This document shows positions 16,970 to 64,000 of a stretch of 64,000 nucleotides of DNA, piece after piece. The stretch spans positions 28,869 to 92,868 of the forward strand of contig MFPD01000011.1 of NCBI GenBank assembly GCA_001784115.1, in the 5' to 3' direction. The notes beneath the pieces are model-generated. The model searched no databases, was not told the DNA's origin, and was given only the letters and a program-made list of their open reading frames with translations. The stretch is from Candidatus Levybacteria bacterium RIFCSPLOWO2_02_FULL_37_18. Lineage in GTDB: Bacteria > Patescibacteriota > Microgenomatia > Levybacterales > UBA12049. Every line of letters starts with the position of its first letter. Within the stretch, counting starts at the first letter, position 1. The translations under genes and the position numbers were made by a program.

Positions 16970-17009
16970 AGCTACGCCGTCATTAAATTCAAAAGTATAA
17001 CTACCATCC

Positions 17010-17371
17010 CAGGCATTGAGCCAATGATTGCATCTGCAATTTTAGGAGAGATTGGGGACATTAAAAGATTTCCCAATGTTCCATCTCTAATTGCTTATGC
17101 AGGACTGGACCCCACTACCTTTGAATCGGGAAGCAGCATCACAAAACACAGGAAGCTTTCTAAGAAAGGCTCTAAGTATTTAAGAACTGCACTATGGCAG
17201 GGTACTGTTTACTCTTTGGTACATAATCCCAACTTAAAAGCATTCTATGACAAGAAGCTCTCTGAGGGAAAACCAAAACAAGTAGCTTTAGGTGCTGTGA
17301 CCAACAAACTTACCAGGATTATTTATGGCATCCTAAGATCTGGTCAAGATTATCAACTAGATTTTAGTTAG
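17010..17371 (+). mobile_element. IS110-family transposase C-terminal fragment (Transposase_20 domain only)
   Basis: IPGIEPMIASAILGEIGDIKRFPNVPSLIAYAGLDPTTFESGSS...GSKYLRTALWQGTVYSLVHNPNLKAFYDKKLSEGKPKQVALGAVTNKLTRIIYGIL is the IS110-family C-terminal signature. No N-terminal DEDD domain upstream (that space is occupied by the argF remnant). Confidence 0.75.
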
Positions 17372-41071: not shown

Positions 41072-42561
41072 CAAATTTTTTCAATTTCATTTTTACCAGA
41101 TACCCTATTAAAACCAGAAGATCATTGGAAATGATGCCAGGTTTAATTTCTTGGAGTTTAATATTTTTTCCCGTTTGGGGATCGCTCTTAATTCCTTTTG
41201 CAGTTGCGTATTTTATTCTTCTTTTTGACGTTTTTTGGTTTTATAAGTCATTTTCTTTAGCCATTACTGCTTATATTGCCTCGAAAAAGATATCTCAGGC
41301 AGAAAAAGTAGATTGGCTTTCTGAAACGAAAAACTTCAAAAACTTCAAAAAAGTCACTCATGTTATTGTGATTCCAAATTACAAAGAAAGCTATACTAAG
41401 TTAAACGCTTCAATAGCTTCAATTGCTAACCAGACCTTCCCAACGAAGCACATTCACGTTGTTTTAGCTATGGAAGAAAGAGAGGCAAAAGCAAAAACAA
41501 AAGCAAATAAACTTATAAAAAAGTATAAACATATTTTTGGCAGTATATTTACTACGTTTCATCCAGACATAGAAGGAGAGATCAAAGGCAAATCCTCTAA
41601 TGAGAGCTACGGAGGAAAACAAGCTTATAAAAAACTTGTCGAAACAGGGCTTATTGATATTAAACACGCAACAATTTCTTCGGTTGACGCTGATTCAATT
41701 TTTGACAAACAGTATTTCTCCTACCTTACATTTAAATTCCTTAAAAATCCAAAACGGTTTGGCACATTTTGGCAGTCCGCAAATGTAAATTATAATAATT
41801 TTTGGAATGTACCAGCTCCTGTGAGAGTGCTATCATTCTTTTCCAGTTTGTATCGAACAGCTCTTTTGATTCAGCAGGATAGACTCGTTGCGAATTCAAC
41901 CTATTCTCTTTCATTTGTAATGCTTCATAAAATCGGCTACTGGGATGTCGATGTAATCCCTGAGGATTACAGAATTTTCTTTAAAGCATTTTACAAACTG
42001 CAAGGAAATGCCTGGGTTGATCCGATATTCTTAAAAACTTCAATGGATGCTCCACTTTCGTCAAGCTATATAAAAAGTCTTAAAAATAAATACAATCAAG
42101 AGCGCAGATGGTCGTGGGGGGTTTCCGACGATCCCCTTTTTATAAAATGGTGGCTGACAACTCCCAACGTGCCATTTTTAAGAAAAACCATTCTTCTTTA
42201 TAACGTCTTACTTGATCACTTTCTCTGGCCGGTTAATTGGTTTATTATTACCGTTGCTGCTAATATTATGCCATTTGTTAATCCAGTTTTTTCACGGACA
42301 ACCTTGGGTTATAACCTTCCCAGATTAGCAGGATTTATCCTTACATCATGTCTATTTGCACTTTTAGCAATGATTATTATTGACGTTAGAAATAGGCCTA
42401 AAAATACTCCACTTTCAAGAGTTAGGCAATTTCTTTTTCCGCTTGAATTTGTCTTGCTTCCTGTGGTCGGATTTTTTCTTTCTACCCTTCCTGCGTTAAT
42501 ATCCCATACCCAGCTTATGTTTGGTAAACGTCTCGAATATAAAGTCACCGAGAAATTATGA
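41068..42561 (+). CDS. Membrane-bound family 2 glycosyltransferase
   Basis: N-terminal TM pair, GT-A fold region (VIVIPNYKES...ANQTFP...HIHVV...SVDADSIF; DxD-like), then four C-terminal TM helices. ATGA-overlapped with the next gene. Confidence 0.65.
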   Translation: MTNFFNFIFTRYPIKTRRSLEMMPGLISWSLIFFPVWGSLLIPFAVAYFILLFDVFWFYKSFSLAITAYIASKKISQAEKVDWLSETKNFKNFKKVTHVIVIPNYKESYTKLNASIASIANQTFPTKHIHVVLAMEEREAKAKTKANKLIKKYKHIFGSIFTTFHPDIEGEIKGKSSNESYGGKQAYKKLVETGLIDIKHATISSVDADSIFDKQYFSYLTFKFLKNPKRFGTFWQSANVNYNNFWNVPAPVRVLSFFSSLYRTALLIQQDRLVANSTYSLSFVMLHKIGYWDVDVIPEDYRIFFKAFYKLQGNAWVDPIFLKTSMDAPLSSSYIKSLKNKYNQERRWSWGVSDDPLFIKWWLTTPNVPFLRKTILLYNVLLDHFLWPVNWFIITVAANIMPFVNPVFSRTTLGYNLPRLAGFILTSCLFALLAMIIIDVRNRPKNTPLSRVRQFLFPLEFVLLPVVGFFLSTLPALISHTQLMFGKRLEYKVTEKL

Positions 42562-44108
42562 AAATTTTCGCCAAGGCAGAAAAAAGCAAAATATGCTGGT
42601 TTTTACTTATCATCTCTGCATTTTTCTTTCTTCTTCGAATACCTTCATTTATAGAGCCATACTGGTACGGCGATGAAGGAATTTACCAAGTAATAGGCAT
42701 GGGGCTTAGGAATGGCAGGTTATTATACAGAGATATTTGGGATAATAAACCTCCGCTTTTGTATGTTTTATATGCTCTGTACAACTCCGATCAATTCACC
42801 ATTCGTCTTGTATCAGCACTCTTTGGCATAGGATCAATCATTGTCTTTTATTTTTTAGCCCAAAATTTATTTAAAAAACATATTGCATATAGTGTTACAA
42901 GTGTGTATGCGTTTCTTTTTTCTCTTCCACTTTTTGAAGGAAACATTGCCAATGCGGAAAACTTTATGCTTTTTCCCATTATTCTTTCTGCTCTCTTTAT
43001 CTATAAAGCTTCCGAACTTGAACCTCCAAAAACAACTATCAAATCATTCTCTCTTTCCTATATACTACATACCAAATACCATATACTCTTATTTTCTGCA
43101 GGTCTTATTCTTTCTTTTGCATTTCTTTTTAAAATTGTCGCCATATTCGATTTTATCGCATTTTTTCTTTTTCTGTTTTTTGTGCATCATCCCAAAAATT
43201 TCTCAAAAAAAAATATATCAAGAATTGTTGAATATAGTACATATTCTATAAAAACATTTCTGCAACTTTTATTAGGATTTTTTATTCCTATTTTTATTAC
43301 TGTTTTGTTTTTTTTCTTTCAGGGTGCCCTTCCTGATTTTTTACACGCCGCGTTTATTCAAAACGTTGGATATGTTGGATATGGTAATACATTATTTTTT
43401 ACTCAAGGATTATTGGTAATAAAGCTTATTCTTTTATCCGGCGTTTGTTTTTTTCTATTTTTAAAAAGAGCGCATATTCCAAAAATACTGCTTTTTATCC
43501 TTCTGTGGCTTTCTTTTTCTGTATTTAATGCTTTTTTTTCCGCCAGGCCCTATACTCATTATGCATTAGTTCTTCTTCCCAGTTTTTGCCTTTTTTTGGG
43601 AGCAACTTTTTCCAACCGATTAAAAACGTTAAGCAAGGCAGAACAAAAACGTCAAAAAATATTACTTACCTTACTTATTGTATTAATAATACTTGTGTAT
43701 AAAAACTTTTGGCTCTACGGAAAAAATATTTCGTATTATCAAAACTTTTTTTTATTCTTAACAAACAAAAAATCTGTAACCATGTATAGATCGTTTTTTG
43801 ATTCTAAAACTCCCCGGGACTATGAACTATCCGCTTTAATAAAACCAAAAAAAGATACGCTATTTATATGGGGAAATAACGCCCAAGTGTATACGCTTTT
43901 AGGCGCACTTCCGCCGGGTCGCTATACTGTCGCGTATCATATTAATTCTTCCCTGCAAACTTTAAAAGAAACCGAACTCGCTCTTTCCAAAATAAAACCA
44001 AAGTATATAATCATAATGCCGGATGTAGGAATATTCCCATATAGCTTATCGGGATATAATCAAATATATAAGATTCGAGATGTTTCAATATATGAAAGAA
44101 GTTTTTAA
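42558..44108 (+). CDS. GT-C fold membrane glycosyltransferase (GT39/ArnT/PMT-like, polyprenyl-phosphate-sugar dependent)
   Basis: Multi-TM protein with N-terminal loop EPYWYGDEGIYQVIGMGLRNGRLLYRDIWDNKPPLLY (DE/extracytoplasmic loop-1 signature of GT39/GT83). Confidence 0.65.
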   Translation: MKIFAKAEKSKICWFLLIISAFFFLLRIPSFIEPYWYGDEGIYQVIGMGLRNGRLLYRDIWDNKPPLLYVLYALYNSDQFTIRLVSALFGIGSIIVFYFLAQNLFKKHIAYSVTSVYAFLFSLPLFEGNIANAENFMLFPIILSALFIYKASELEPPKTTIKSFSLSYILHTKYHILLFSAGLILSFAFLFKIVAIFDFIAFFLFLFFVHHPKNFSKKNISRIVEYSTYSIKTFLQLLLGFFIPIFITVLFFFFQGALPDFLHAAFIQNVGYVGYGNTLFFTQGLLVIKLILLSGVCFFLFLKRAHIPKILLFILLWLSFSVFNAFFSARPYTHYALVLLPSFCLFLGATFSNRLKTLSKAEQKRQKILLTLLIVLIILVYKNFWLYGKNISYYQNFFLFLTNKKSVTMYRSFFDSKTPRDYELSALIKPKKDTLFIWGNNAQVYTLLGALPPGRYTVAYHINSSLQTLKETELALSKIKPKYIIIMPDVGIFPYSLSGYNQIYKIRDVSIYERSF

Positions 44109-44445
44109 TACGGTTAAAAAAGATAAAATTCTCTATGTAAGTTTTAGTATAGCTGGGGTACTTATGATTATAAATTGGACATACACAGCATTTTTATTTA
44201 ATCGTCTTCCTCCTTTTCTGCCTTTGTTCAACCAGCTGGCCTGGGGAGAAAAAAGAGTAGGAAATAAATCTGAAATTTTTATTCCTATTGCAATAGTTTT
44301 TGCTGTATTCATAAGTAATTTCCTTATTTCCTCTTTCCTTTATTCAAAAACTCCGCTTATCTCAAGAATACTTTGTATAACAACTCTTCTGATCTCTTTG
44401 TTTGCGCTTCTATTTACCATCCGAACCATAGGTCTTGTGTTATAA
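44080..44445 (+). CDS. Hypothetical small membrane protein
   Basis: 121-aa ORF with 3 predicted TM helices inside the envelope gene cluster. Confidence 0.35.
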   Translation: MFQYMKEVFNTVKKDKILYVSFSIAGVLMIINWTYTAFLFNRLPPFLPLFNQLAWGEKRVGNKSEIFIPIAIVFAVFISNFLISSFLYSKTPLISRILCITTLLISLFALLFTIRTIGLVL

Positions 44446-45511
44446 CATGACAACTTTTTATTTCATAATTCTTCTCCCGATAACTATATCCTTTTTAGCC
44501 GCAAGCATTCTTACTCCCATTTGTATACATATTTTGAAAAAAATTGGATTATTTGATGATCCTAAATTACGAAAACATCCAGGAGTTATTCATACCAAAC
44601 CAATCCCCCGAGGAGGAGGAATTCCTCTTTTTTTAGGAGTTTTTATTACAGCTTTGTATTTTCTTCCCATAAATGGAATAACTATTTCTCTTTTTATAGC
44701 TTCTTTTATTTCTCTTGTGGTTGGAGTTTTAGATGATAAATTTGATATTTCACCATATATTCGCTTTGTAATAAATATTCTTTCGGCTGCATTAGTTGTT
44801 TTTAATGGTGTTGGTGTTCCTTTTATTACCAATCCTTTTGCGCCTAGTGTTTTACATCTTGACACTATTGCGCTTTTTTCTTTTGGAACAATTACGATCT
44901 ACCTCTCGCATATTGTATCGCTTTTGTGGATTGCTTGGGTAATTAATATGCTTAACTGGAGTAAGGGGGTTGACGGACAAATGCCTGGAATCGTAGCAAT
45001 TTCAGCCACAGTAATAGGTCTTTTGTCCCTTCGATATACCCTCTTAGACCCTCTTTCTATTACTTCTGCAAAACTTTCGTTTATTATCGCTGGAAGCGCG
45101 TTGGGATTTTTGTTATTTAATTATTATCCGGCACGAATTTTTCCCGGTTACGGGGCAACATCAATATATTTATTGCTGGCTGTGGCCTCTCTACTGTCAA
45201 GTGCAAAACTTGCTACCGCAATATTAGTCATGGGAATTCCTATGGTAGACGGGTTATTTACCATTATCCGAAGAATCGTAAGCGGACGATCTCCTTTTTG
45301 GCACGATAAAAAACATCTTCATCACCTGCTGCTTGAATTAGGACTATCGCAAAAACACATTGCATTGTTTTATTGGAGTATTTCTGCTATATTAGGTGCG
45401 TTATCGCTTACGCTTTCAAGCAGTGGTAAATTTTTTGCTATAGTAATGCTTGGTGTACTCGTTGGAGGCACGTTGCTTTTCTTACACGTTGCATTAAGGA
45501 AAAACTCATGA
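44435..45511 (+). CDS. Polyprenyl-phosphate N-acetylhexosamine-1-phosphate transferase (MraY/WecA family, GT4)
   Basis: Cytoplasmic loop motifs DDPKLRKHPGVIHTKPIPRGGGI, VVGVLDDKFDISP, NMLNWSKGVDG. ~10 TM. Confidence 0.8.
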   Translation: MCYNMTTFYFIILLPITISFLAASILTPICIHILKKIGLFDDPKLRKHPGVIHTKPIPRGGGIPLFLGVFITALYFLPINGITISLFIASFISLVVGVLDDKFDISPYIRFVINILSAALVVFNGVGVPFITNPFAPSVLHLDTIALFSFGTITIYLSHIVSLLWIAWVINMLNWSKGVDGQMPGIVAISATVIGLLSLRYTLLDPLSITSAKLSFIIAGSALGFLLFNYYPARIFPGYGATSIYLLLAVASLLSSAKLATAILVMGIPMVDGLFTIIRRIVSGRSPFWHDKKHLHHLLLELGLSQKHIALFYWSISAILGALSLTLSSSGKFFAIVMLGVLVGGTLLFLHVALRKNS

Positions 45512-46452
45512 GCAGACTATTATATAACACGCTCAAGCTGCTTCGGCCGAGACAATGGATTAAAAACTTCGCCATTTTTGCCGCTATCACGTTTAAAGGA
45601 CAATTATTCGAACCATCGGTATTTTTAAGAGTAAGCATTGCGTTTATTATTTTTTGCATGCTTTCTTCCGCAATTTATATTATTAACGATATCTTTGATG
45701 TCAAAAGAGACCGGCTTCATCCATTCAAACGATTTAGACCTCTGGCCCATAAAGATCTTTCTGTCGAATACGCATTAGCGCTTGCTATGTGTTTGCTGTT
45801 TGTATCGTTTTGGGTAGGGTTTTTTGTAAATCCAACTTTTTTCTTACTTACTATTGCATATTTCCTTCTCCAGGTTTCTTATACTGTTTTCCTCAAACAC
45901 ATTGTTATTTTGGATATCTTAGCAATTGCCTCAGGGTACATCCTTAGAGTTTATGCCGGAGAATTTGCCTCAGGACTTCACATTTCTGTCTGGCTTTTAC
46001 TTACCACAATTTCTATTTCTCTTTTACTTGCTGCAGGAAAACGCAGGTCAGAATTAACGCTTCTTTTAGGAAATCCCAATACAAAAATAGAAATTACGCG
46101 AAAATCACTTTCAAGGTATTCCGAACGTCTCTTGGATGTATATGCTTCGATTTTTGCCACCTCTACATTTATTTCCTATTCGCTTTTTACTTTTTTGGAA
46201 AACGAGTCAGGATTTAAGCTATCAATTGGAGTCCTTATGCCGGATTTTCTGCCATCTTTTTTCCAAAAAAAATGGCTTATGATAACAATATTACCGGTGG
46301 TATATGGACTCATGCGTTATCTAGAAGATGTATACGAACGGCATGAAGGAGAAAGTCCGGAAAGAGTCTTACTTTCTGATAAACCACTCTTAACAAGCGT
46401 GCTTTTATGGATACTTTTGGTTATTGCCATCATCTATTACGTTGGCCCCTAA
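45508..46452 (+). CDS. UbiA-family polyprenyl-phosphate phosphoribosyltransferase (decaprenyl-phosphate 5-phosphoribosyltransferase/Rv3806c-like)
   Basis: RPRQWIKNFAIFAA, YIINDIFDVKRDRLHPFKRFRPLA, LKHIVILD, AGKRRSEL align block-for-block with M. tuberculosis UbiA/Rv3806c (RPRQWVKN..., YLVNDVRDVEADREHPTKRFRPIA, LKHQAVVE, AGKRYAEL). Confidence 0.8.
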   Translation: MSRLLYNTLKLLRPRQWIKNFAIFAAITFKGQLFEPSVFLRVSIAFIIFCMLSSAIYIINDIFDVKRDRLHPFKRFRPLAHKDLSVEYALALAMCLLFVSFWVGFFVNPTFFLLTIAYFLLQVSYTVFLKHIVILDILAIASGYILRVYAGEFASGLHISVWLLLTTISISLLLAAGKRRSELTLLLGNPNTKIEITRKSLSRYSERLLDVYASIFATSTFISYSLFTFLENESGFKLSIGVLMPDFLPSFFQKKWLMITILPVVYGLMRYLEDVYERHEGESPERVLLSDKPLLTSVLLWILLVIAIIYYVGP

Positions 46453-49569: not shown

Positions 49570-49643
49570 TAACCTATAGTTAAAATAGCACTCAGGAAGC
49601 TTGACACTGTTTTATTTTGCCTATACTATGATATTAGTACCTA

Positions 49644-50812
49644 TGCAACGAAACAAATTTTTAATTGGGGGCATTATTGCTGTTTTGTTGATTACTATTC
49701 CCTTAACGGTCTTTTTACTTGGGCAACAGCAACAAACTCAAACCAAAGCAACACCTGCAACCACACTCTCTTTAGCGCTATCTAATCCCTCTCAAACAGT
49801 TACTGTAGGGCAAGACTTTGGTGTTGATATTAATATCAATCCAGGAAGCAATCAAGTTTCGTATGTAAAAGTGACAATTAATTTTGATGAAACAAAACTA
49901 GCAACCTCAGGAGCAGGATTTGAACCAAGTGCTTCTTTTCCTACCACACTTGAAGGCCCTATATTTACTTCAAACTCGTTTACTGTTGGTCTTTCAATTG
50001 GGGCTGATTACACAAAAGCAGTACAAACACCCGGAAAAGTAGGAAAACTAACATTCCGTGCCAAAGCACTAACCAATGGCACCCAACAACTTGCCAGCTT
50101 TGATACAGGGCAACAAAAAACACTGGTTCTTTCTATTGCAAGCAGCCAAGATAATTATAACGAAAATGTTTTATTGCCAAATCCCGCACCTCTTTCTTTA
50201 GCTATCTCAGCAGGACCAACCGGAACACCCGGGCCAACAGCACCAACCCAAGCACCAACCTGCAGCAACTTAAAAATCGATAGGGTAGCAAGCGGTAATA
50301 CGCCGTTTTCTATTACATTTACCGCTGATGGAAGCGATCCTGACGGGACAATTTTTAGGGTATCTTTTGACTTTGGAGATGGACCAAGTCAAGATGAAAC
50401 TGCCGGCGGTGGCATTGGAACCGGTACAGTAAGTGTCCCTAAATCTCATACGTATAACAATCCAGGAACGTACGAAGCCAGAGCAACCCTCTATGACAAT
50501 AATCAAAACGCAAGTTTGCCTAATACCAAGTGCACAAAAACAATAACTGTAACTCAGGGACCAACTCCCACTCCAGGATCCATTTCTGCGATTACCCCTA
50601 TTCCAACCCCGCCATTATCTGCACAACCAACTGCTATTATTCTTACCCCCACACCGCTTGCTTCTAATCCAACAACTATTGCGCAAAGACCAACTACAAC
50701 TCCACCAGGTCAACCACCGCCAAACTCTGGACCAGGAGATGCCATTCTTGTAGCCGGGGGTATTGGATTTGTCCTATCTGTAATTGGTGCGCTTTTGTTT
50801 TTTGGACTCTAG
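49644..50812 (+). CDS. PKD-domain surface protein with N-terminal signal anchor, Pro/Thr-rich stalk and C-terminal TM
   Basis: MQRNKFLIGGIIAVLLITIPLTVFLLG signal anchor. PKD-like block DGSDPDGTIFRVSFDFGDGPSQ...HTYNNPGTYEARATLYDNNQN. PT-rich stalk (TPTPGSISAITPIPTPP...TTTPPGQPPP). C-terminal hydrophobic helix. ORF-track start (49601) uses TTG; ATG at 49644 preferred. Confidence 0.6.
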
Positions 50813-56811: not shown

Positions 56812-56887
56812 CCTCCAATCCCTTTGACAAAAGATATAAAACCTCCTAGACTAATTAAAGGCGTTATGTGTAAACGTCTTGTTTTGT

Positions 56888-57427
56888 ATGATTAAAAAAA
56901 CTCCAACAATAAACTTATTTACAGGAAGAAGTAAAAGCTTTATTGATAGATTTCTAAAATGGGCATTAAGCGTTGGAAGACTTATCATCATTCTAACCGA
57001 AATAATAGCCCTTTCAGCTTTTTTATATAGATTCTCTCTAGACAGACAACTTATTGATCTTAGGGACAAAATAAAATCACAACAAAAAATACTTGACTTG
57101 TATAAAAATAACGAAAAAAAATACAGAAGTCTTCAAGAAAGAATTGCATTATCTTCTCAACTTTCTACTCTAGCTGAAAAAAATACTGACACGCTCAACA
57201 AAATCAATCAAAGTATTCCAATTAATATGTCTGTAAGTAGTCTTACCTTGCAAAAAAAGAGCATGAATATAAATGCAAGTGTACCGTCAATTTCTACACT
57301 CACTTCCTTTATGAAAAAAATAAAAAGTTTTCCAGAAGTAAAAGGAACAACGCTTGAAAGAATTGATAATAGGATATCAAGCTCTACACTCGTATTTAGT
57401 TTAAATGTCTTTCTAAAAGATGAATAA
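56888..57427 (+). CDS. pilN: PilN-like type IV pilus assembly protein
   Basis: N-terminal MIKKTPTINLFTGRSK (INLLP-type motif), single TM, coiled-coil and C-terminal beta domain. ~180 aa. Confidence 0.5.
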   Translation: MIKKTPTINLFTGRSKSFIDRFLKWALSVGRLIIILTEIIALSAFLYRFSLDRQLIDLRDKIKSQQKILDLYKNNEKKYRSLQERIALSSQLSTLAEKNTDTLNKINQSIPINMSVSSLTLQKKSMNINASVPSISTLTSFMKKIKSFPEVKGTTLERIDNRISSSTLVFSLNVFLKDE

Positions 57428-58040
57428 TACAAAAATCAAAAAAAATAATTCTCTATTTCCTGTTAAGAACAAATATCTTGAGTTTCTTCCAAAAATTAAA
57501 GAAGAAAAAATACAAGTAGCAACAACTGTGGGCTTAACATTCCTTGGTATTATTTTGTTTGGTTTGTTTGCAATCAGCCCAACTCTGACAACCATTGCTC
57601 ATCTAAGAAAAAGTTTGGCTGATAATCAAGATTTATTTGCCAAATTGCAAGAGAAAAACAAAAATTTAAGTATTCTCCAGCAAAAATATTCAACCGTGGA
57701 AAAAGATATTCCTACCATTCTGTCTGCACTGCCCCAAAAACCATCGGCACCTGTCTTTCTTGGACAAATACAAACTCTTCTTGTTAGTAATCATCTTAAT
57801 TTAATAAACATTGGATCTCTTGAGGTCGAGCTTACCAAATCTGAAGAAGGCGAAAATCAGTATTCATCGTTTATTTTTAATCTGAGCGCCGATGGATCGA
57901 ATGAGAATGTGCTCACGTTTATAAATTCCTTAATACATGTCAGCAGGATCGCATCTATAGATAACATCTCTCTTGTAGAAAACTCAAAAAAAGGAAATAC
58001 ACAAGTTACAATTACTGGAAAAACGTATTTTAAAAAATAA
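57420..58040 (+). CDS. pilO: PilO-like type IV pilus assembly protein
   Basis: Short cytoplasmic N-terminus, TM, long coiled-coil (LRKSLADNQDLFAKLQEKNKNLSILQQKY) and C-terminal domain. Overlaps the pilN stop, immediately downstream of the PilN-like gene. Confidence 0.45.
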   Translation: MNNTKIKKNNSLFPVKNKYLEFLPKIKEEKIQVATTVGLTFLGIILFGLFAISPTLTTIAHLRKSLADNQDLFAKLQEKNKNLSILQQKYSTVEKDIPTILSALPQKPSAPVFLGQIQTLLVSNHLNLINIGSLEVELTKSEEGENQYSSFIFNLSADGSNENVLTFINSLIHVSRIASIDNISLVENSKKGNTQVTITGKTYFKK

Positions 58041-58042
58041 TT

Positions 58043-58339
58043 ATGAAACAAAAAGACATCTTACTTATCTTAGGCTCTCTTTGTGTAGTTACTATTGCGT
58101 GGATTATTTTTAATATTTATCATACTACTGTCACATCAACAATTCCCGAAACCATAACTACGCAAGTTAAACCAATCACACCGGATTTTGATATAAAAAG
58201 TATTGATGCGCTTAAAAAAAGACAAAAAATAACTCCAAATTTTGGTTTTCCTTCCTCTGGTACTCCTACTCCGACACCTACCCCTTTTCTCTTGCCAAAA
58301 AAGAATCAACCTGCATCTGAAAGCTCATTCCTTAGATGA
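58043..58339 (+). CDS. Small membrane-anchored protein with Thr/Pro-rich tail (pilus-cluster associated)
   Basis: 98 aa, N-terminal TM, ...GTPTPTPTPF. ATGA-overlapped with the downstream gene. Confidence 0.4.
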   Translation: MKQKDILLILGSLCVVTIAWIIFNIYHTTVTSTIPETITTQVKPITPDFDIKSIDALKKRQKITPNFGFPSSGTPTPTPTPFLLPKKNQPASESSFLR

Positions 58340-59685
58340 AAAAAAATATTTTGAGTATTCGTATTCCAACCTTGTTGGGAATTTTTTTAATACTGGTTAC
58401 TCTTGCATCAACATCGTATCTTGCAAATCAGGGTGTAATTACGATTGGAAGAGCAAGTTTAACACAAGCCCCACAAAGAGTGCGCATAACGAATGTCTCA
58501 GATACTTCATTTACGGTTTCTTATAAAACCGAGACTCCAACACTAGGATCTCTTAACACTGGAAAAGATAAAAGCTTAGGCCTTGTAATCAATGACGACA
58601 GAGATAGTCAAACCGCAAAGCCTCATGTACTTCATTACTTTACTGTAAAAAATCTTGCCCCTAACACACTATATTATTTTTCAATTGTATCCGGTGACAC
58701 TATATACACAAACAATAATACTCCTTTTACAGTGACAACGCGTGAATTAGGCGATACTACTTCTTCACCTAATTCAATGAGCGGAAAAATAATTACACAA
58801 GAAGCAACAGCCCCTCAGGAAGCAATCGTATATGTAAAAAAATCATCCGATCCCAAATCTATATCTACATTAGTAAATAATGACGGGACGTATTCTTTGG
58901 ATGTATCAAAAATTGGAATTAAAAATAATTCTTCAGACAGTCACATTCTCCAAATGCTTGTTCTTGGAGATCAAAAAGAATCAAATATTACTATTAGATC
59001 TTCTGCTATCCATCCTGTCCCAATAATTACTCTTGCCAAAGATTACGATTTTATTCAAAACGTTTTAGAACCGTCTGCGTCAACAAGCGCAAATTTTCAA
59101 TCTTTTCCCTCATTTAATTTTACCAGTAACTCTACAATACCTCAAATTATTACACCAAAAAATGAAGAAATCTTCAAAGATGCCAAACCTCAATTCTTTG
59201 GAACTGCATCTGCATCAGCCTTGGTAAAAATTACTATCCATTCTCAAGATATAATACAAGATCAAGTAAAAACAGACCCTAACGGCAGATGGTCATATCG
59301 TCCAATTCAACCTCTTTCTCCCGGAAATCATACTATTTCTATAACAACCCAGGATCAGACAGGAATTACAAAAAGTATCGAAAAAACATTTATTGTTTTT
59401 GCATCCGGAAGCCAATTTATCGAGCCTTCTGTTTCTCCTATTCCGCCTACTCCCACCTCATCACCTACAATAACCCCCACGCCTTCCATTCCCACAGCAA
59501 CACCTTTGCCTCCAACTCCTACTTCATTACTTTTGCCATCTCCAACCATAATCCCTCCTGCAAGCTCAACTACTCTTCCTCCGCCCGGAAGTTCAACTGC
59601 CTTGCTTACAGGACTTAAGGGAATTGGAATAACTCTTGCTGGCTTACTTCTTCTAATTCTCTCCCGAGGCGTTTTACATATATGA
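58336..59685 (+). CDS. Surface protein: signal anchor + Fn3-like and Ig-like domains + Pro/Thr-rich stalk + C-terminal TM
   Basis: Fn3-like RVRITNVSDTSFTVSYKTETPT...NTLYYFSIVSGD. PT-rich PTPTSSPTITPTPSIPTATPLPPTPTS. C-terminal ALLTGLKGIGITLAGLLLLILSRGVLHI is a possible non-canonical sorting signal. Confidence 0.55.
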   Translation: MKKNILSIRIPTLLGIFLILVTLASTSYLANQGVITIGRASLTQAPQRVRITNVSDTSFTVSYKTETPTLGSLNTGKDKSLGLVINDDRDSQTAKPHVLHYFTVKNLAPNTLYYFSIVSGDTIYTNNNTPFTVTTRELGDTTSSPNSMSGKIITQEATAPQEAIVYVKKSSDPKSISTLVNNDGTYSLDVSKIGIKNNSSDSHILQMLVLGDQKESNITIRSSAIHPVPIITLAKDYDFIQNVLEPSASTSANFQSFPSFNFTSNSTIPQIITPKNEEIFKDAKPQFFGTASASALVKITIHSQDIIQDQVKTDPNGRWSYRPIQPLSPGNHTISITTQDQTGITKSIEKTFIVFASGSQFIEPSVSPIPPTPTSSPTITPTPSIPTATPLPPTPTSLLLPSPTIIPPASSTTLPPPGSSTALLTGLKGIGITLAGLLLLILSRGVLHI

Positions 59686-60953
59686 AAATAGGAATAATAG
59701 GTGCAGGATTTACTGGCCTTTCTGCAGGAATTCAATTATTAAAAAAAGGTCACAGCGTTACAATTTTTGAAAAAGATAAAAATCCAGGCGGCCTTGCCTT
59801 AGGATACAAAGAAAACAAGTGGCAATGGAGTCTTGAGGAACATTATCATCATTGGTTTACGAATGATTCTTATATAGTAGCTCTTGCTAAAGAAATTAAA
59901 CACGAAGTAATAATACAAGAACCAAAAACATCTGTATATGTAGACAATACGTCTTATCAACTTGATTCTCCTATCCGCGTTCTTAGTTTTCCCAAATTAT
60001 CTTTTTTTGAAAGAGTGCAAATGGGAATTGCTTTGGGAATATTTCGTTTTAATCCTTTCTGGAAACCTCTAGAACAATTTCGTGCATCCGACGTCTTATC
60101 TAAACTAATGGGAGAAGTCCCTTATAAACTTCTTTGGGAACCATTATTGAAAAATAAATTTGGTAATTATGCCGACGATGTTTCACTTGCGTGGTTTTGG
60201 GCGCGAATTTATAAAAGGACAAAAAAGCTCGCTTATCCTAAAGGAGGTTTTCTAGAATTCGCGAATAAACTTGTTGAATATATTAACAATTTGGGCGGAA
60301 CGGTAATTTACAATTCACCAGTAGAAAATATTAAATCCAACAATGATTCCGTAAGCATAAAAACAAATAACAAATCTCAGTCTTTTGACAAAATAATTGT
60401 GACGCTGCCTTCTCAATTATTTACTAAAACTGCTTCCATTCCTTTTGAATACAAGCAAAGTTTAGAACAATTAAAAAGTTTAGGAGCGGTAAATCTTGTA
60501 TTAAGACTTAAAGAAGAGTTTTTAAAAGACGGAACGTATTGGCTGAGTATGTGCGATGCCAACATTCCGTTTTTAGCTATTATTGAACATACTCACTTCA
60601 TGGATAAAAAATCTTATAACAACGAATATATAGTATATATTGGAAAATATCTCCCTAGTAGTGATCCTTTTTTTTCAAAATCTAAAGAAGAAATATTTAA
60701 TATATATGACCCGTTTCTTGCCAAGATTACCAAAAATTATAAAAAATCTATTATCGACTATCGAGTATTTAAAGCTCCGTTTGCCCAACCAATCATCCCT
60801 ATACATTATTCAAAAGTTATGCCATCATTTAAAACTCCTTTACAGGGCGTGTACCTTGCAAACATACAACAAGTATATCCCTGGGATCGAGGAACAAATT
60901 ATGCAGTTGGATTAGGTCAAAAAATAGCCACGTTTATTGAAAACGATAGATGA
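59682..60953 (+). CDS. FAD/NAD(P)-binding oxidoreductase (amine-oxidase/phytoene-desaturase-like Rossmann)
   Basis: MKIGIIGAGFTGLSAGIQLLKKGHSVTIFEKDKNPGG (GxGxxG + acidic residue + NPGG). ATGA overlaps on both sides link it to the upstream surface-protein gene and the downstream GT-C gene. Confidence 0.65.
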   Translation: MKIGIIGAGFTGLSAGIQLLKKGHSVTIFEKDKNPGGLALGYKENKWQWSLEEHYHHWFTNDSYIVALAKEIKHEVIIQEPKTSVYVDNTSYQLDSPIRVLSFPKLSFFERVQMGIALGIFRFNPFWKPLEQFRASDVLSKLMGEVPYKLLWEPLLKNKFGNYADDVSLAWFWARIYKRTKKLAYPKGGFLEFANKLVEYINNLGGTVIYNSPVENIKSNNDSVSIKTNNKSQSFDKIIVTLPSQLFTKTASIPFEYKQSLEQLKSLGAVNLVLRLKEEFLKDGTYWLSMCDANIPFLAIIEHTHFMDKKSYNNEYIVYIGKYLPSSDPFFSKSKEEIFNIYDPFLAKITKNYKKSIIDYRVFKAPFAQPIIPIHYSKVMPSFKTPLQGVYLANIQQVYPWDRGTNYAVGLGQKIATFIENDR

Positions 60954-62614
60954 AGAAAAAAATATCCATCTTGATAGTTTTTGTATTTGCAATTGCTTTT
61001 TTATTTCGCTTTTATAATATTCTATGGGGATCACCATACTTCTTCCACCCGGATGAAAGAAATATAGCTTATGCAACTGAGAGAATCCGTTTTCCAAATC
61101 AATTAAATCCCCAGTTTTTTGCGTATGGCAGTTTTCCGATATATGTCATTTATTTTACTGGTGTTTGCTTCAATTTCTTTTCTCACTTTTTGAACATAGA
61201 AAAAAATATTAGTGATATATTTTCTGTTTCATTCGAAAATGCGATATTTTTTGGAAGATTCTACAGTGCTGTTTTTTCGTTTATTTCTATTTTTCTGACA
61301 GTAAAGATCTACAAAAAAATAAGTAATAAAACACCAGGAACAATTCTTCTCATGTGGTTACTGACAACAAGTGCGGGATTTATTCAATTTGCCCACTTTG
61401 CTACATTCGAAATGTGGCTAACATTTTTCACCCTATTGCAGTTTTATTATTTATTAAAATTTTTTGAACAAAAAAAAGTTGTTTATTTTTCTATTTCATC
61501 TGTAATTTTTGGACTGCTTCTTAGCATTAAAATTTCCTCATTAACTCTTTTTCCTATTTCTCTTTTTATAATAAAAAAAACAAAATTGAACTGGAAAAAA
61601 AATCTTGTTATTTTTTTAGTAACTGCCTTTGTAACAGGTATTCTTACCTCGCCATTTTATGTTTTGGATTTTTCTACTTTTAAATCAAACATAACATATG
61701 AATCAAATGTTGCAACCGAAACGCTTCCTGTTTTTTATTCCGGACAATTTTTTTATACAATTCCTATTCTATTCCAGCTTACAAAAGTATATCCATTTCT
61801 CATAAACCCAATGCTAACTATATTATTCATCCCTTCTCTTTTGTATGTTACCATTATTGGTTTTAAAAAAACAAAAAATTCTTATCTCTTATTGCTTTTC
61901 ACTTATCTCTTACTTTTCCTTCCGCAATCATTTTTATTTGTAAAATGGACACGTTATATGGTTCCAACTCTTCCTTTTATCTATCTTATAATTACGATTT
62001 TTCTTTCTGAACTTTTGCAAGGACTACAAAAGAAAGTTCATTACTATTATATTAGTATAATAGTAATAATAACGATAACCATAAGTATAGGTTTTGCATT
62101 TTCATATTTTCTTACAGTTTATCTTAATCCAGATACACGGATTCAAGCAAGTAGTTGGGCGAGTGAACACATACCAAAGAATGCAAAAATTCTAAGCGAG
62201 GTTTATGATTTAGGAATCATTCCTTTTAATCAATATTTCCAAAATATCCAACTCTTTAATTTTTATTATCTCGACAATACAGACACCTCGGATGGTGGCA
62301 GACTGAGCTTGCGAAGCCATGACTCCTCCGAGGTAAATGACCTAGAACAAAAACTCAGAGATTCAGATTATCTAATTCTTCCAAGCCAACGAATACTAAA
62401 AAATAGAATTACAAATAAACAAAAGTTTCCGGTTGGATTTAAATTTTATTATAAACTTCTTTCCGGAAAGCTTGGATATAAAAAAATCTACGAAACACCA
62501 TGTGATATTTTTTGTAAAATAATATACATGGGAGATCCTGTTTTTAATATCGAAGAAACAGCAAATGTTTTTGACAGACCGATGGTATTTATTTTCAAAC
62601 ATGAAAAATTATAA
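60950..62614 (+). CDS. GT-C fold membrane glycosyltransferase (GT39/PMT-like), paralog 1
   Basis: FFHPDERNIAYATERIRFPNQLNPQFFAYGSFPIY loop-1 motif, >10 TM. Confidence 0.65.
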   Translation: MKKKISILIVFVFAIAFLFRFYNILWGSPYFFHPDERNIAYATERIRFPNQLNPQFFAYGSFPIYVIYFTGVCFNFFSHFLNIEKNISDIFSVSFENAIFFGRFYSAVFSFISIFLTVKIYKKISNKTPGTILLMWLLTTSAGFIQFAHFATFEMWLTFFTLLQFYYLLKFFEQKKVVYFSISSVIFGLLLSIKISSLTLFPISLFIIKKTKLNWKKNLVIFLVTAFVTGILTSPFYVLDFSTFKSNITYESNVATETLPVFYSGQFFYTIPILFQLTKVYPFLINPMLTILFIPSLLYVTIIGFKKTKNSYLLLLFTYLLLFLPQSFLFVKWTRYMVPTLPFIYLIITIFLSELLQGLQKKVHYYYISIIVIITITISIGFAFSYFLTVYLNPDTRIQASSWASEHIPKNAKILSEVYDLGIIPFNQYFQNIQLFNFYYLDNTDTSDGGRLSLRSHDSSEVNDLEQKLRDSDYLILPSQRILKNRITNKQKFPVGFKFYYKLLSGKLGYKKIYETPCDIFCKIIYMGDPVFNIEETANVFDRPMVFIFKHEKL

Positions 62615-64000
62615 AAATCACATTCTATTTTTAGTAATTCTTTTGATTGGATCATTATTTAGATTTTGGAACATGAACTGGGACGAAGGGTTTCATCTTC
62701 ACCCAGACGAAAGGTTTCTGACTATGGTTGGCAATTCCATGAGAATTCCAAATAACCTTTTAAGCTACCTAGACCCAAAAGTTTCAACTTTTAATCCTCA
62801 GAATATCAACTATCCCTTCTTTGTTTATGGAACTTTTCCCTTAGTGCTCAATAAAATAATAGTGTCGTTATTAAATAGCGATACTTATTTTCAATTTACT
62901 TTGTTTGGAAGAATAGTATCCGCATTTTTCGATCTTTGTATTATTGCACTTATTTACAAAACAGTTGAACTACTAGAGAAAAAATATAGACTATCAAGAT
63001 CGATTAAATTCCTCGCTAGTTTTTTTTATTCAATCACCGTATTTCCCATTCAGTTGTCTCATTTTTTTGCTGTTGATACTTTTCTTAATTTCTTCATGTT
63101 CGCATCTTTTTACTTTATTCTTAAGTATTCTTTTGAAAAAAAAATATCTTTTCTTGTGTTTAGTGCCATCCTAATGGGCCTTGCATTTGCATGTAAAATA
63201 ACTGCCGCCTTTATTTTCCCTTTAAATATGTTTTTCTTGTTTATAGGGAATAACAAGAATCATATTAGTAAAATATTTACTCGTAAGTTGTTCCAAACAT
63301 CTTATTCAGGATTCATATTATTCTTATTTTATGCCACTATAGTATATTTTACTCTTAGGATTGCTGATCCGTATATGTTTGAAAACAGCTCTATCTTACA
63401 CCCCGAAATAAACAAACTGTTTATCCAAAACTTGAAAACTCTTTCGACTTTAACAGGGAAAGGAGCAACCTATCCCCCAACAATTCAATGGATTAACAAG
63501 ACTCCCATACTTTTTAGTTTGACAAATATTATTGTTTTTGGAGTTGGAGTTATATACTTTTTATTTATACTCATAGGATTTTATACGTCTCTAAAGGTTT
63601 ATAAAAATATTTTTCGGACAATTCTTGTTTGGACAATCGGATTTTTTCTTTACCAAGCATCTCAATTTGCCCAAAGCATGCGGTATTTTATTCCTATTTA
63701 TCCGTTTCTCGCGATTTTTGCAGGAGTTGGTTTTTTCTACCTTACAAAAAAATGGAAAAAAATATTTGTTATACTTTTACTTATTGTTCCCCTTTTGTAT
63801 CCTCTTGCATTTATCTCTATATATAGAAACGAGACAACGCGGGTAACGGCATCAAAATGGATTTATAAAAATATACCCGACGGGAGTCTGTTACTTGGAG
63901 AACATTGGGATGATCCGCTCCCGTTATTAGTTACCAATACCAAACAAAAACAATTTATATCAGAAGCATTACCTGTTTTTGACATGGATACAAATGAAAA
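62601..64000 (+). CDS. GT-C fold membrane glycosyltransferase (GT39/PMT-like), paralog 2; runs off window end
   Basis: MKNYKNHILFLVILLIGSLFRFWNMNWDEGFHLHPDERFLTMVG..., same HPDER loop-1 motif as paralog 1. Frame open to the window end; start overlaps the upstream stop. Confidence 0.6.
   Translation, partial: MKNYKNHILFLVILLIGSLFRFWNMNWDEGFHLHPDERFLTMVGNSMRIPNNLLSYLDPKVSTFNPQNINYPFFVYGTFPLVLNKIIVSLLNSDTYFQFTLFGRIVSAFFDLCIIALIYKTVELLEKKYRLSRSIKFLASFFYSITVFPIQLSHFFAVDTFLNFFMFASFYFILKYSFEKKISFLVFSAILMGLAFACKITAAFIFPLNMFFLFIGNNKNHISKIFTRKLFQTSYSGFILFLFYATIVYFTLRIADPYMFENSSILHPEINKLFIQNLKTLSTLTGKGATYPPTIQWINKTPILFSLTNIIVFGVGVIYFLFILIGFYTSLKVYKNIFRTILVWTIGFFLYQASQFAQSMRYFIPIYPFLAIFAGVGFFYLTKKWKKIFVILLLIVPLLYPLAFISIYRNETTRVTASKWIYKNIPDGSLLLGEHWDDPLPLLVTNTKQKQFISEALPVFDMDTNE

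What the first reader, a model, noticed from the sequence alone, without database searches (positions are those of the whole stretch)
58336..64000. Surface protein with Pro/Thr-rich stalk translationally coupled to an FAD oxidoreductase and two tandem GT39-like (protein-O-glycosyltransferase-type) paralogs
Genes 58336-59685 (Fn3/Ig surface protein with PTPTSSPTITPTPSIPTATPLPPTPTS stalk), 59682-60953 (FAD oxidoreductase), 60950-62614 and 62601->64000 (two GT-C paralogs sharing the HPDER loop-1 motif) are linked by ATGA-type overlaps. This implies one operon. GT39 enzymes in actinobacteria O-mannosylate secreted proteins on Thr/Pro-rich segments using polyprenyl-P-mannose. Here the putative substrate, with a PT-rich linker, is encoded in the same operon. 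The PKD protein (49644-50812) and the small 58043-58339 protein carry similar PT-rich stretches, and the third GT-C at 42558-44108 has the same motif. This looks like a dedicated surface-protein O-glycosylation module.
Basis: inference. Interest (0 to 1): 0.6.

Follow-up and report, generated by a model that had tools for sequence, protein, structure and literature searches.

The report
Wall-anchored protein beside envelope-glycan genes
In this uncultured Levybacteria (CPR) genome one operon joins pilus-assembly genes and a cell-wall-anchored protein to a conserved flavoenzyme and two membrane glycosyltransferases. These enzymes more likely build a cell-envelope sugar polymer than specifically glycosylate the neighbouring protein.

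Summary
The genes are real and tightly coupled, with ATGA overlaps at 58336, 59682 and 60950. The operon starts further upstream, at pilN-like 56888 and pilO 57420.

The "surface protein" is a sortase substrate. Its orthologues end in LPPTG, a membrane helix and a basic tail, so the Pro/Thr stalk is most simply a wall-spanning spacer.

In 80 related loci, pilN–pilO–small protein–LPXTG protein–flavoenzyme is invariant within Levybacteria. The gene after the flavoenzyme varies: an HPDER GT-C in 42 loci, a DUF2298-type membrane protein in 19, none in 6.

In Daviesbacteria, Woesebacteria and two other loci about 49% identical to the window enzyme, the flavoenzyme lies within or beside GT-C, GT2 or Wzx genes, with no surface protein nearby. 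Relatives are fused to GtrA, to an MprF-type lipid-flippase domain, to methyltransferases and once to an HPDER GT-C.

The two GT-Cs are true paralogues of GT-C_A fold. They are about equally similar to ALG12, PMT, OST and ArnT, so the acceptor cannot be read from the fold. The third GT-C carries YGDE, not HPDER, and is not detectably related to GT-C1.

A decaprenyl-phosphate phosphoribosyltransferase homologue lies 14 kb upstream, and an LCP ligase lies just downstream of the window.

Best reading: an envelope-glycan module placed next to a pilus and wall-protein module. Dedicated O-glycosylation of the stalk is not excluded but has little support.

The parts
56824..56852 (+). Promoter-like site (TTGACA-17-TAGACT) upstream of pilN. 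It is a candidate start of the operon.
   Evidence: Best-scoring + strand match of the region (10/12), at L004 5875-5903, which is window +50949. This is a consensus match only. The total number of matches is no higher than in shuffled sequence.
56888..57427 (+). PilN-like bitopic protein (179 aa from the ATG; the mechanical ORF starts at TTG 56879).
   Evidence: Pfam PilN 17.1 bits, below the 22.8 cut-off. The N-terminal 'INLF' resembles the PilM-binding INLLP motif (my own knowledge). It sits before pilO in 71 loci.
57420..58040 (+). PilO, a type IV pilus alignment-complex protein.
   Evidence: Pfam PilO 2.2e-11, 44.5 bits against a cut-off of 22. Conserved position.
58043..58339 (+). 98-aa membrane-anchored protein with a short TPTPTPTP stretch. 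It occupies the 'pilP position' of the operon.
   Evidence: No family match. Conserved in 69 loci at a median 43% identity.
58336..59685 (+). Wall-anchored surface protein. Order of parts: N-terminal hydrophobic segment (signal peptide or helix, my reading), fn3-like domain, Big_13 Ig-like domain, PT-rich stalk, LPXTG-type sorting signal (LPPPG here), membrane helix, RG tail.
   Evidence: Pfam. Orthologues end in [LI]P[PK]TG-type motifs followed by a hydrophobic helix and an R/K tail.
59682..60953 (+). FAD oxidoreductase of the uncharacterised PRK07233 family, with a protoporphyrinogen-oxidase / phytoene-desaturase fold.
   Evidence: NCBIfam 390 bits. AF2 pLDDT 87. Foldseek: PPO 1e-24, and PDS 5mog has the best TM of 0.84. 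Median 57% identity across loci. A GT-C-type gene follows directly in 61 of 67 loci. Fusions to GtrA, LPG_synthase_TM and methyltransferases and to an HPDER GT-C.
60950..62614 (+). GT-C1, a polyprenyl-phosphate-sugar-dependent glycosyltransferase of GT-C_A fold. HPDER lies in the first outer loop and a C-terminal extracytoplasmic domain carries two conserved Cys.
62601..64000 (+). GT-C2, a paralogue of GT-C1, cut by the window end. In the source contig it is 563 aa and ends at about 64292.
   Evidence: BLASTP 26% identity, E 3e-25. Profile-profile E 2e-104. Full length from L004.
45508..46452 (+). Polyprenyl-phosphate phosphoribosyltransferase homologue (Rv3806c/UbiA type). It is the only identifiable polyprenyl-P-monosaccharide synthase in the window.
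   Evidence: NCBIfam NF008978 234.6 bits against a cut-off of 207. PDB 8j8j E 6.5e-40 over the full length.
41068..45511 (+). Second envelope-glycan cluster: membrane GT2, GT-C3 (YGDE motif), a 121-aa ORF and a WecA/MraY-family phosphosugar transferase.
   Evidence: Pfam and NCBIfam. BLAST finds no significant similarity between GT-C3 and GT-C1.
49601..50812 (+). PKD-domain surface protein with a PT-rich stalk and a degenerate LPXTG-type C-terminus.
   Evidence: Pfam PKD 2.5e-8. Most orthologues end in LP[PAV]TGP followed by a helix.
11003..11704 (+). Sortase, the enzyme expected to anchor the two LPXTG-type proteins.
   Evidence: Pfam Sortase 4.2e-20, 72.2 bits.

Best explanation
The operon 56888->64292 is a composite of two envelope modules that Levybacteria transcribe together.

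Module A is pilN-like, pilO, a small membrane protein and an LPXTG-type beta-sandwich protein.
- The last protein is exported and cut at its LPXTG-like signal by the sortase encoded at 11003. It is then linked to peptidoglycan.
- Its Pro/Thr stalk is the spacer that crosses the wall.

Module B is the PRK07233-family flavoenzyme plus two GT-C_A paralogues. It continues beyond the window with a small ORF (HAD-like DxD motif by eye only), a DUF2298 (Chlor_Arch_YYY) membrane protein and a convergent LCP ligase.
- The flavoenzyme works at the cytoplasmic face of the membrane. Its substrate is a polyprenyl-phosphate-linked sugar, or the carrier lipid itself.
- The donor is flipped, and the GT-Cs transfer the sugar outside the membrane onto a growing envelope glycan.
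- The LCP enzyme then attaches that glycan to peptidoglycan.
- The donor may be a polyprenyl-P-pentofuranose made by the Rv3806c-like phosphoribosyltransferase at 45508.

Shown: gene identities, folds, synteny and fusions. Inferred: substrate, donor, acceptor and the order of steps.
For: - In Levybacteria the order pilN-pilO-small-LPXTG protein-flavoenzyme has no intervening gene between the surface-protein gene and the flavoenzyme gene in 56 of 59 loci.
- The next gene after the flavoenzyme varies among GT-C-type families.
- The alternative ~545-aa gene is a DUF2298-type paralogue (hhalign 97%, E 8e-11).
- When the block is broken, the LPXTG protein stays with pilN/pilO (pilO only in L084). 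In L084 the flavoenzyme stays with GT-C, DUF2298 and LCP genes. In L075 no GT-C follows it.
- Outside Levybacteria the flavoenzyme is flanked by:
  - three PMT_2 genes, GT1 and GT2 in Daviesbacteria (L087);
  - an AftD-like GT-C, a PMT_2 GT-C, GT2 and GT1 in Woesebacteria (L086);
  - at least six large membrane genes (three with weak or faint PMT/PMT_2 hits) and a 298-aa GT2 in L089;
  - four PMT_2 genes, a PTPS_related/YfhO gene, GT2, GT1 and a flippase in a JGI contig;
  - an unannotated 870-aa protein, a Wzx-type flippase and GT2s, with no recognisable GT-C, in L090.
  None of these has a pilO gene or the surface protein.
- Fusions of family members: GtrA_DPMS_TM (4.8e-16), LPG_synthase_TM (5.9e-40), class I methyltransferases and an HPDER GT-C (L054).
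- The flavoenzyme is as conserved as MurJ and S20 (57% against 62% and 56%). Its best structural superposition is on a polyisoprenoid desaturase.
- An LCP ligase and MurJ flank the locus.
- A DPPR-synthase homologue scores above its equivalog cut-off.
- Sorting signals and PT stalks coincide in both LPXTG-type proteins of the window.
Against: - No acceptor, donor or product is known.
- The fold does not separate glycan, lipid and protein acceptors.
- The flavoenzyme is not homologous to DprE1. No DprE2-like reductase is consistently adjacent.
- The DPPR synthase lies 14 kb away and is absent from the non-Levybacteria loci examined.
- The tight, often overlapping junction between the LPXTG gene and the flavoenzyme gene (23 of 59 loci with ATGA) is what a functional link would also produce.
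- In Blackburnbacteria the genes inserted between the two modules encode other surface proteins. That fits glycosylation of surface proteins equally well.
- The L054 fusion is a single case and could be an assembly frameshift.
- Only about 20 kb per genome was examined.
Confidence: 0.5

Rival explanations
1. GT-C1 and GT-C2 are PMT-like protein O-glycosyltransferases. They decorate Thr/Ser in the PT-rich stalks of the co-encoded LPXTG protein, and of the PKD protein and the 98-aa protein, during or after export. The flavoenzyme prepares the lipid-linked donor.
For: - Conserved adjacency and frequent ATGA coupling of the LPXTG gene and the flavoenzyme gene in Levybacteria.
- Pfam PMT_2 hits above cut-off.
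- Loci with HPDER GT-Cs have slightly richer P/T/S stalks (median 0.675 against 0.625, p 0.015, not corrected for phylogeny).
- In L084 other surface-protein genes sit between the two modules.
Against: - The stalk persists in loci that have no HPDER GT-C within about 7 kb downstream (18 loci by the motif test; 12 loci with DUF2298-type genes only).
- The stalk position before LPXTG is explained by wall spanning.
- In other Microgenomates lineages the flavoenzyme and glycan clusters lack the surface protein.
- Several GT-C genes cluster beside the flavoenzyme in other lineages, up to four or five PMT_2-type genes in the JGI contig. I read this as pointing to glycan assembly, where different linkages need different enzymes, rather than to a single PMT.
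- Pfam PMT is below its cut-off, and no sequence match to a solved PMT was found.
- No Ppm1/DPM1-like GT2 is present in the window.
Confidence: 0.2
2. The GT-Cs glycosylate type IV pilins, as TfpW does in Pseudomonas aeruginosa. They would use a polyprenyl-P-pentofuranose donor made by the Rv3806c-like enzyme and processed by the flavoenzyme. This would explain the linkage to pilN/pilO.
For: - pilN/pilO lie in the same operon.
- A DPPR-synthase homologue lies in the neighbourhood.
- The TfpW system in P. aeruginosa uses homologues of Rv3806c, DprE1 and DprE2 plus a GT-C (my own knowledge, not checked in a paper here).
Against: - No pilin gene, pilM, pilB, pilC or pilT was found in the window.
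- The flavoenzyme and GT-C clusters of other lineages have no pil genes.
- There are no DprE1 or DprE2 homologues.
Confidence: 0.07
3. The GT-Cs act like ArnT or YfhO. They would decorate a membrane lipid or lipoglycan, such as a lipoteichoic-acid-like polymer or glycolipid, rather than a wall-linked polymer or a protein.
For: - JGI names many homologues 'Ara4N transferase-like'.
- GtrA and MprF-type flippase fusions of the flavoenzyme resemble three-component lipid-carrier glycosylation systems.
Against: - An LCP ligase is conserved next to the module and points to a peptidoglycan-linked product.
- No sequence similarity to ArnT was found.
- In the loci examined I saw no match to an LTA-synthase family.
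Confidence: 0.13

Closest known systems
Arabinogalactan / lipoarabinomannan pathway of Mycobacterium and Corynebacterium (WecA, Rv3806c, DprE1/DprE2, GtrA-family Rv3789, AftA-D/Emb GT-Cs, Lcp1)
   Same: - A phosphoribosyltransferase homologue scoring above its equivalog cut-off.
- A WecA-family transferase.
- Several GT-C paralogues, including an AftD-like one next to the flavoenzyme in Woesebacteria.
- A flavoenzyme encoded beside the GT-Cs, and fused to GtrA in a relative.
- An LCP ligase.
   Different: - The flavoenzyme has a PPO/phytoene-desaturase fold, not the VAO fold of DprE1.
- No DprE2, Glf or GlfT was seen.
- The organism is a CPR bacterium. No chemistry is known.
Protein O-mannosyltransferases, GT39 (yeast Pmt1/2/4; actinobacterial Pmt with Ppm1)
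   Same: - GT-C_A fold with an acidic Asp-Glu pair at the start of the first outer loop.
- A Pfam PMT_2 match.
- PT-rich secreted proteins are encoded nearby.
   Different: - Pfam PMT is below its cut-off.
- No sequence match to solved PMTs.
- No Pfam MIR match.
- No Ppm1-like GT2 in the window.
- The GT-Cs come as paralogue arrays linked to LCP and DUF2298 genes.
Three-component lipid-carrier glycosylation systems (GtrA/GtrB/Gtr-type GT-C; CsbB/GtcA/YfhO; ArnC/ArnD/ArnEF/ArnT)
   Same: - Logic of a polyprenyl-P-sugar synthase, optional modification on the lipid, a flippase and a GT-C.
- A ~298-aa GT2 follows the flavoenzyme in two lineages.
- Fusions to GtrA and to an MprF-type flippase domain.
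   Different: I know of no described system of this kind that uses a PRK07233-type flavoenzyme. Five of the seven library searches run bore on this and found nothing. The modification step is therefore of unknown chemistry.
Sortase-anchored LPXTG surface proteins of Gram-positive bacteria
   Same: An N-terminal export signal, Ig/fn3-like domains, a Pro/Thr-rich wall-spanning segment, an LPXTG-type motif, a hydrophobic helix and a basic tail. A sortase gene is present in the window.
   Different: - The window copy has LPPPG rather than LPXTG.
- The gene is fixed behind pilN/pilO in a whole phylum. I do not know of this arrangement in Firmicutes or Actinobacteria.

Membership tests
GT39 protein O-mannosyltransferase (PMT) | Match to Pfam PMT (PF02366) above the gathering score | tested here: not met
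   GT-C1 scores 18.3 bits against a cut-off of 22.7. GT-C2 has no hit.
GT39 protein O-mannosyltransferase (PMT) | Detectable sequence similarity to characterised or solved PMTs | tested here: not met
   phmmer and a 30-sequence profile against all PDB chains gave no GT-C hit at E<=10 and E<=1 respectively.
GT39 protein O-mannosyltransferase (PMT) | GT-C_A fold with an acidic DE pair in the first extracytoplasmic loop | tested here: met
GT39 protein O-mannosyltransferase (PMT) | Partner polyprenyl-phosphate mannose synthase (Ppm1/DPM1-type GT2) | tested here: not met
   No such GT2 appears among the annotated ORFs of the 64-kb window or the 10 kb downstream. The rest of the genome was not examined.
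GT39 protein O-mannosyltransferase (PMT) | Transfer of mannose to Ser/Thr of secreted proteins | not testable with these tools
   Needs biochemistry or glycoproteomics.
Pfam PMT_2 (PF13231; generic ArnT/PMT-like GT-C) | Score above the gathering threshold | tested here: met
   GT-C1 28.5 bits and GT-C2 31.9 bits against 26.1. GT-C3 scores 23.5, below threshold.
LPXTG sortase substrate | N-terminal export signal; C-terminal LPXTG-type motif, hydrophobic helix and basic tail; a sortase in the genome | tested here: met
   The window copy has LPPPG + helix + SRG. Orthologues mostly have [LI]P[PK]TG. Sortase at 11003-11704. Cleavage itself was not tested.
Type IV pilus alignment subcomplex (PilM/N/O) | PilO and PilN domains, with PilM, pilins and ATPases present | tested here: inconclusive
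   PilO scores above its cut-off and PilN below it. No pilM, pilin, pilB, pilC or pilT was found in the window. The rest of the genome was not seen.
NCBIfam NF005560 / PRK07233 (uncharacterised FAD oxidoreductase) | Full-length score above the curated cut-off | tested here: met
   390.3 bits against 252, residues 1-422 on profile positions 1-431 of 435.
DprE1 (decaprenylphosphoryl-ribose 2'-oxidase) | VAO-type FAD_binding_4 fold | tested here: not met
   The flavoenzyme has an amine-oxidase / PPO / phytoene-desaturase fold. A DprE1-like role would be by analogy only.
Decaprenyl-phosphate phosphoribosyltransferase (Rv3806c/UbiA type) | Equivalog model above its cut-off and full-length similarity to the solved enzyme | tested here: met
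   NF008978 scores 234.6 bits against 207 (NF008977 scores 227.7 against 234, just below). PDB 8j8j E 6.5e-40, residues 4-309. Applies to window 45508-46452.
DUF2298 / Chlor_Arch_YYY membrane proteins | Match to TIGR03662 / PF10060 | tested here: met
   The downstream 721-aa gene (outside the window) scores 471 bits against 300. The ~545-aa gene that replaces the HPDER GT-Cs in other loci is related (hhalign 97%). Its relation to the GT-C superfamily is only weakly supported (GT-C2 against DUF2298: 59%, E 9e-5).

The most novel reading that the evidence does not exclude
The PRK07233-family flavoenzyme is a previously unrecognised enzyme, conserved across many Patescibacteria. It would act on polyprenyl-phosphate-linked sugars as a non-homologous counterpart of DprE1, or as a carrier-lipid saturase or desaturase. 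It would supply donors to arrays of GT-C enzymes that build a peptidoglycan-linked, possibly pentofuranose-containing, wall glycan in these ultrasmall bacteria. A second, smaller possibility is that the LPXTG protein fixed at the 'pilQ position' after pilN-pilO-small protein is a wall-anchored component of the monoderm type IV pilus machine.
Probability: 0.2. Interest if true: 0.75.

Novelty: new variant of a known kind. Interest (0 to 1): 0.42.

Why it matters
The cell envelope of CPR/Patescibacteria is almost unstudied. These organisms live attached to other cells, so their surface chemistry is central to their biology.

The work points to a testable enzyme family. It has 714 clusters at 50% identity and is as conserved as MurJ in Levybacteria. 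Gene order and domain fusions tie it to lipid-carrier glycosylation.

It also corrects a tempting but weakly founded reading of PT-rich stalks as glycosylation substrates. The stalks belong to sortase-anchored wall proteins.

If the flavoenzyme proves to make a new lipid-linked donor, it would add a step to the known repertoire of GT-C pathways.

Tried and rejected
- Sequence classification of the GT-Cs against solved structures, with a single sequence and with a profile, gave nothing.
- NCBIfam gave no hit for any of the three GT-Cs.
- I considered UDP-galactopyranose mutase for the flavoenzyme. The sequence hits are weak and confined to the N-terminus, and no mutase appears among the top 50 structural matches. 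Rejected.
- I considered protoporphyrinogen oxidase, which is the JGI name. It rests on the COG/fold only. I judged it implausible, on my own knowledge that CPR genomes generally lack haem synthesis and because the gene sits among GT-C genes.
- The ~545-aa gene after the flavoenzyme has no Pfam or PDB match and no relation to the HPDER family. Profile comparison with DUF2298 resolved it.
- Five of the seven literature searches bore on the question (PRK07233, DUF2298, GT-C or GT39 in Patescibacteria, DPPR synthase in CPR). They found nothing relevant.
- The 2026 Pam-pilus preprint concerns a different operon.
- Rfam and tRNA scans of the window were empty.
- The small ORFs (121 aa, 181 aa, 80 aa, 98 aa, 387 aa) have no significant family match even at E<=1. 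The HAD-like DxD motif of the 181-aa ORF is my reading of the sequence only.

Full report
**Source and setting.** The window is part of contig MFOP01000024.1 of a Candidatus Levybacteria genome (CPR/Microgenomates; GCA_001782445.1). It is about 36% G+C. Apart from the envelope genes it carries housekeeping genes: rpoB, alaS, metG, dnaK/dnaJ/grpE/hrcA, clpB, nusA, infB, pnp, ftsK, rnj, groEL/ES, lepA and murJ. No tRNA or Rfam family was found.

**Observation.** All four ORFs of the finding exist as described.
- The junctions at 58336, 59682 and 60950 are ATGA overlaps. GT-C1 and GT-C2 overlap by 14 nt.
- The 449-aa protein has a Big_13 Ig-like domain above the Pfam cut-off, weak fn3-type matches and the quoted PT stretch.
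- The 423-aa protein is an FAD enzyme of the amine-oxidase fold. It is a full-length member of the uncharacterised NCBIfam family PRK07233 (390 bits, cut-off 252).
- The two GT-Cs reach Pfam PMT_2 just above threshold. They are real paralogues (26% identity, E 3e-25; family profiles E 2e-104) and share HPDER, which is invariant in 30 homologues.

Two points of the observation fail or are incomplete.
- The third GT-C at 42558 has YWYGDE, and BLAST finds no significant similarity between it and GT-C1.
- The operon does not start at 58336. A pilN-like gene (56888), pilO (57420; Pfam 2e-11) and the 98-aa gene precede it with an 8-nt overlap and a 2-nt gap. The best promoter-like site of the region lies just upstream of pilN.
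- GT-C2 continues to about 64292 in the source contig. Downstream lie an 80-aa ORF, a convergent methyltransferase and GT1, a 181-aa ORF, a 721-aa DUF2298/Chlor_Arch_YYY membrane protein, a 387-aa ORF and a convergent LCP (LytR-CpsA-Psr) ligase.

**The surface protein is a sortase substrate.**
- Among 78 orthologues recovered from related genomes, the C-terminus is a sorting signal of the LPXTG type. It is most often LPPTG, also IPKTG, LPKTG and IPASG, and is followed by a hydrophobic helix and an R/K tail. The window copy reads LPPPG.
- A sortase gene lies at 11003-11704.
- The PKD protein at 49601-50812 is the only other PT-rich ORF in the window. Most of its orthologues end in LP[PAV]TGP followed by a helix.
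- From established knowledge of Gram-positive surface proteins, a Pro/Thr-rich segment just before LPXTG is the wall-spanning spacer. The stalk is therefore expected whether or not it is glycosylated.

**Synteny.**
I kept 80 loci. Nearly all are Levybacteria, plus one Blackburnbacteria and one Woesebacteria.
- pilN-pilO-98 aa-LPXTG protein-flavoenzyme is invariant in Levybacteria. No gene intervenes between the surface-protein gene and the flavoenzyme gene in 56 of 59 scorable loci, and 23 have the ATGA overlap.
- The gene after the flavoenzyme is not fixed. Of 67 loci with enough downstream DNA:
  - 42 have an HPDER GT-C, one of them fused in frame to the flavoenzyme;
  - 19 have a DUF2298-type protein;
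  - 6 have neither.
- The unannotated ~545-aa alternative is a DUF2298-type paralogue (hhalign 97%, E 8e-11 over the full length).
- Orthologues of the surface protein keep a PT/S-rich stalk in loci without HPDER GT-Cs (median 0.625 against 0.675).
- Where the block is interrupted, the surface protein stays with pilN/pilO (pilO only in L084). In L084 the flavoenzyme stays with DUF2298-type and LCP genes. In L075 no GT-C-type gene follows it. In L084 the inserted genes encode other surface proteins: a subtilase with FG-GAP repeats and cohesin/dockerin-like proteins.

**Outside Levybacteria.** In the five loci outside Levybacteria (about 49-50% identical to the window enzyme, for those with sequence) the flavoenzyme lies in glycan clusters, and in four of them GT-C genes are next to it.
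- Woesebacteria: methyltransferase, PMT_2 GT-C, GT2, AftD-like GT-C, flavoenzyme, GT1.
- Daviesbacteria: three PMT_2 genes around the flavoenzyme, with GT1, several GT2s, epimerases, methyltransferases and an LPG_synthase_TM protein.
- A JGI contig: a PTPS_related/YfhO gene, four PMT_2 genes, the flavoenzyme, a 298-aa GT2, GT1 and a Polysacc_synt flippase.
- L089: at least six large membrane proteins in a row (three with weak or faint PMT/PMT_2 hits), the flavoenzyme and a 298-aa GT2.
- L090: an unannotated 870-aa protein upstream, then the flavoenzyme, a flippase and GT2s. No GT-C is recognisable there.

None of these has pilO or the surface protein. The flavoenzyme's constant setting is glycan-assembly genes, usually GT-C glycosyltransferases, and not the PT-stalk protein.

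**The flavoenzyme.**
- It is as conserved across the loci as MurJ and ribosomal protein S20 (median 57% against 62% and 56%). This is well above the surface protein (37%) and PilN/PilO (35%).
- The family has 714 clusters at 50% identity with E<=1e-30.
- The AF2 model (pLDDT 87) matches protoporphyrinogen oxidases, monoamine oxidases and carotene desaturases. The best superposition is on plant phytoene desaturase (TM 0.84). UDP-galactopyranose mutase is not among the top 50.
- Family members occur fused to four kinds of partner:
  - a GtrA_DPMS_TM domain, in a cluster that includes a Vogelbacteria member (E 4.8e-16);
  - an LPG_synthase_TM (MprF-type flippase) domain;
  - class I methyltransferases, twice;
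  - an HPDER GT-C, once.
- By my own knowledge, GtrA-family proteins belong to lipid-carrier glycosylation systems. In M. tuberculosis the GtrA homologue Rv3789 is encoded beside dprE1.
- These fusions and the gene order place the enzyme at the membrane, on the cytoplasmic side, because it is fused N-terminal to the first helix of the GT-C. They place it in the supply of polyprenyl-phosphate-linked donors.
- Its reaction is unknown. Two readings remain open. One is a DprE1-like oxidation of a lipid-linked sugar. The other is a change of saturation in the carrier lipid, as the desaturase-like fold might suggest.

**The GT-Cs.**
- The AF2 model of GT-C1 (pLDDT 83) is a GT-C_A enzyme.
- There is no sequence-level match to any solved GT-C. 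Pfam PMT is below its cut-off.
- The fold therefore fits a protein, glycan or lipid acceptor equally well.
- I read the paralogue arrays in other lineages, and the conserved DUF2298 and LCP neighbours, as favouring assembly or decoration of a wall-linked glycan.

**Donor.** The UbiA-family gene at 45508-46452 passes the NCBIfam equivalog cut-off for decaprenyl-phosphate phosphoribosyltransferase (234.6 against 207). It matches the solved M. tuberculosis Rv3806c over its full length (E 6.5e-40).
- It sits in a second cluster with a membrane GT2, GT-C3, a 121-aa ORF and a WecA-family transferase.
- It is the only recognisable polyprenyl-P-monosaccharide synthase in the window. This raises the possibility of pentofuranose donors, as in the mycobacterial arabinan pathway.
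- The link is weak. The gene is 14 kb away and is absent from the non-Levybacteria loci. No DprE1 or DprE2 homologue was seen.

**Verdict.**
- The locus is best read as two envelope modules in one Levybacteria operon. One is a pilN/pilO unit with a sortase-anchored wall protein. The other is a lipid-carrier glycan-assembly unit made of a conserved uncharacterised flavoenzyme and GT-C paralogues.
The proposed substrate-enzyme relationship is not supported by comparative evidence but cannot be excluded.
- GT-C and LCP wall-glycan clusters and LPXTG proteins are known kinds. The PRK07233 flavoenzyme as a fixed partner of GT-C enzymes is, as far as I could find, undescribed.

Noticed in passing
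window 8665-11704: A 781-aa protein with a weak Baseplate_J-like match (1.4e-8) overlaps the start of the sortase gene (11003-11704). A phage-baseplate-like protein translationally coupled to a sortase is an unusual pair.
   Followed up: no
window 14917-17371: Signs of gene decay. An M20 peptidase is split into two ORFs (14917-15426 and 15550-15981). An ornithine/aspartate carbamoyltransferase is reduced to its C-terminal domain (16192-16710). An IS110-family transposase fragment lies at 16946-17371.
   Followed up: no
window 45508-46452: A decaprenyl-phosphate phosphoribosyltransferase (Rv3806c) homologue scores above the NCBIfam equivalog cut-off in a CPR genome. It sits next to a WecA-family gene, with no DprE1 or DprE2 in the window.
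   Followed up: partly
L054 10001-12925: A single 974-aa ORF fuses the flavoenzyme in frame to an HPDER GT-C. It is either a real fusion or a one-base assembly error at the usual ATGA junction.
   Followed up: partly
P0486/P0509 (cluster includes a Candidatus Vogelbacteria member), P0501, P0374, P0449, P0443: Relatives of the flavoenzyme are fused to GtrA_DPMS_TM, to LPG_synthase_TM, to class I methyltransferases and to an unannotated 400-aa N-terminal region.
   Followed up: partly
window 52715-54625 (- strand): A 636-aa protein matches the glycogen-phosphorylase Pfam family over about 70 residues only (466-533). The rest has no match.
   Followed up: no
window 49601-50812 and orthologues in L007-L083: Orthologues of the PKD-domain protein end in LP[PAV]TGP followed by a helix, but without the basic tail seen in the other LPXTG-type protein. 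The window copy has a degenerate motif (PPNSGPG).
   Followed up: partly
L004 13340-13582 (just beyond the window end): An 80-aa ORF overlaps the end of GT-C2 and has no homologue in the other loci. In some loci (L023, L033, L064) a methyltransferase sits after the flavoenzyme, so the ORF may be a gene remnant.
   Followed up: no
window 1-64000: GC skew is negative on the + strand in almost every 2-kb bin, and the cumulative skew falls steadily. No replication origin or terminus seems to lie in the window.
   Followed up: no
window 26300-27217 (- strand): A 305-aa ORF between infB and pnp has no Pfam match.
   Followed up: no
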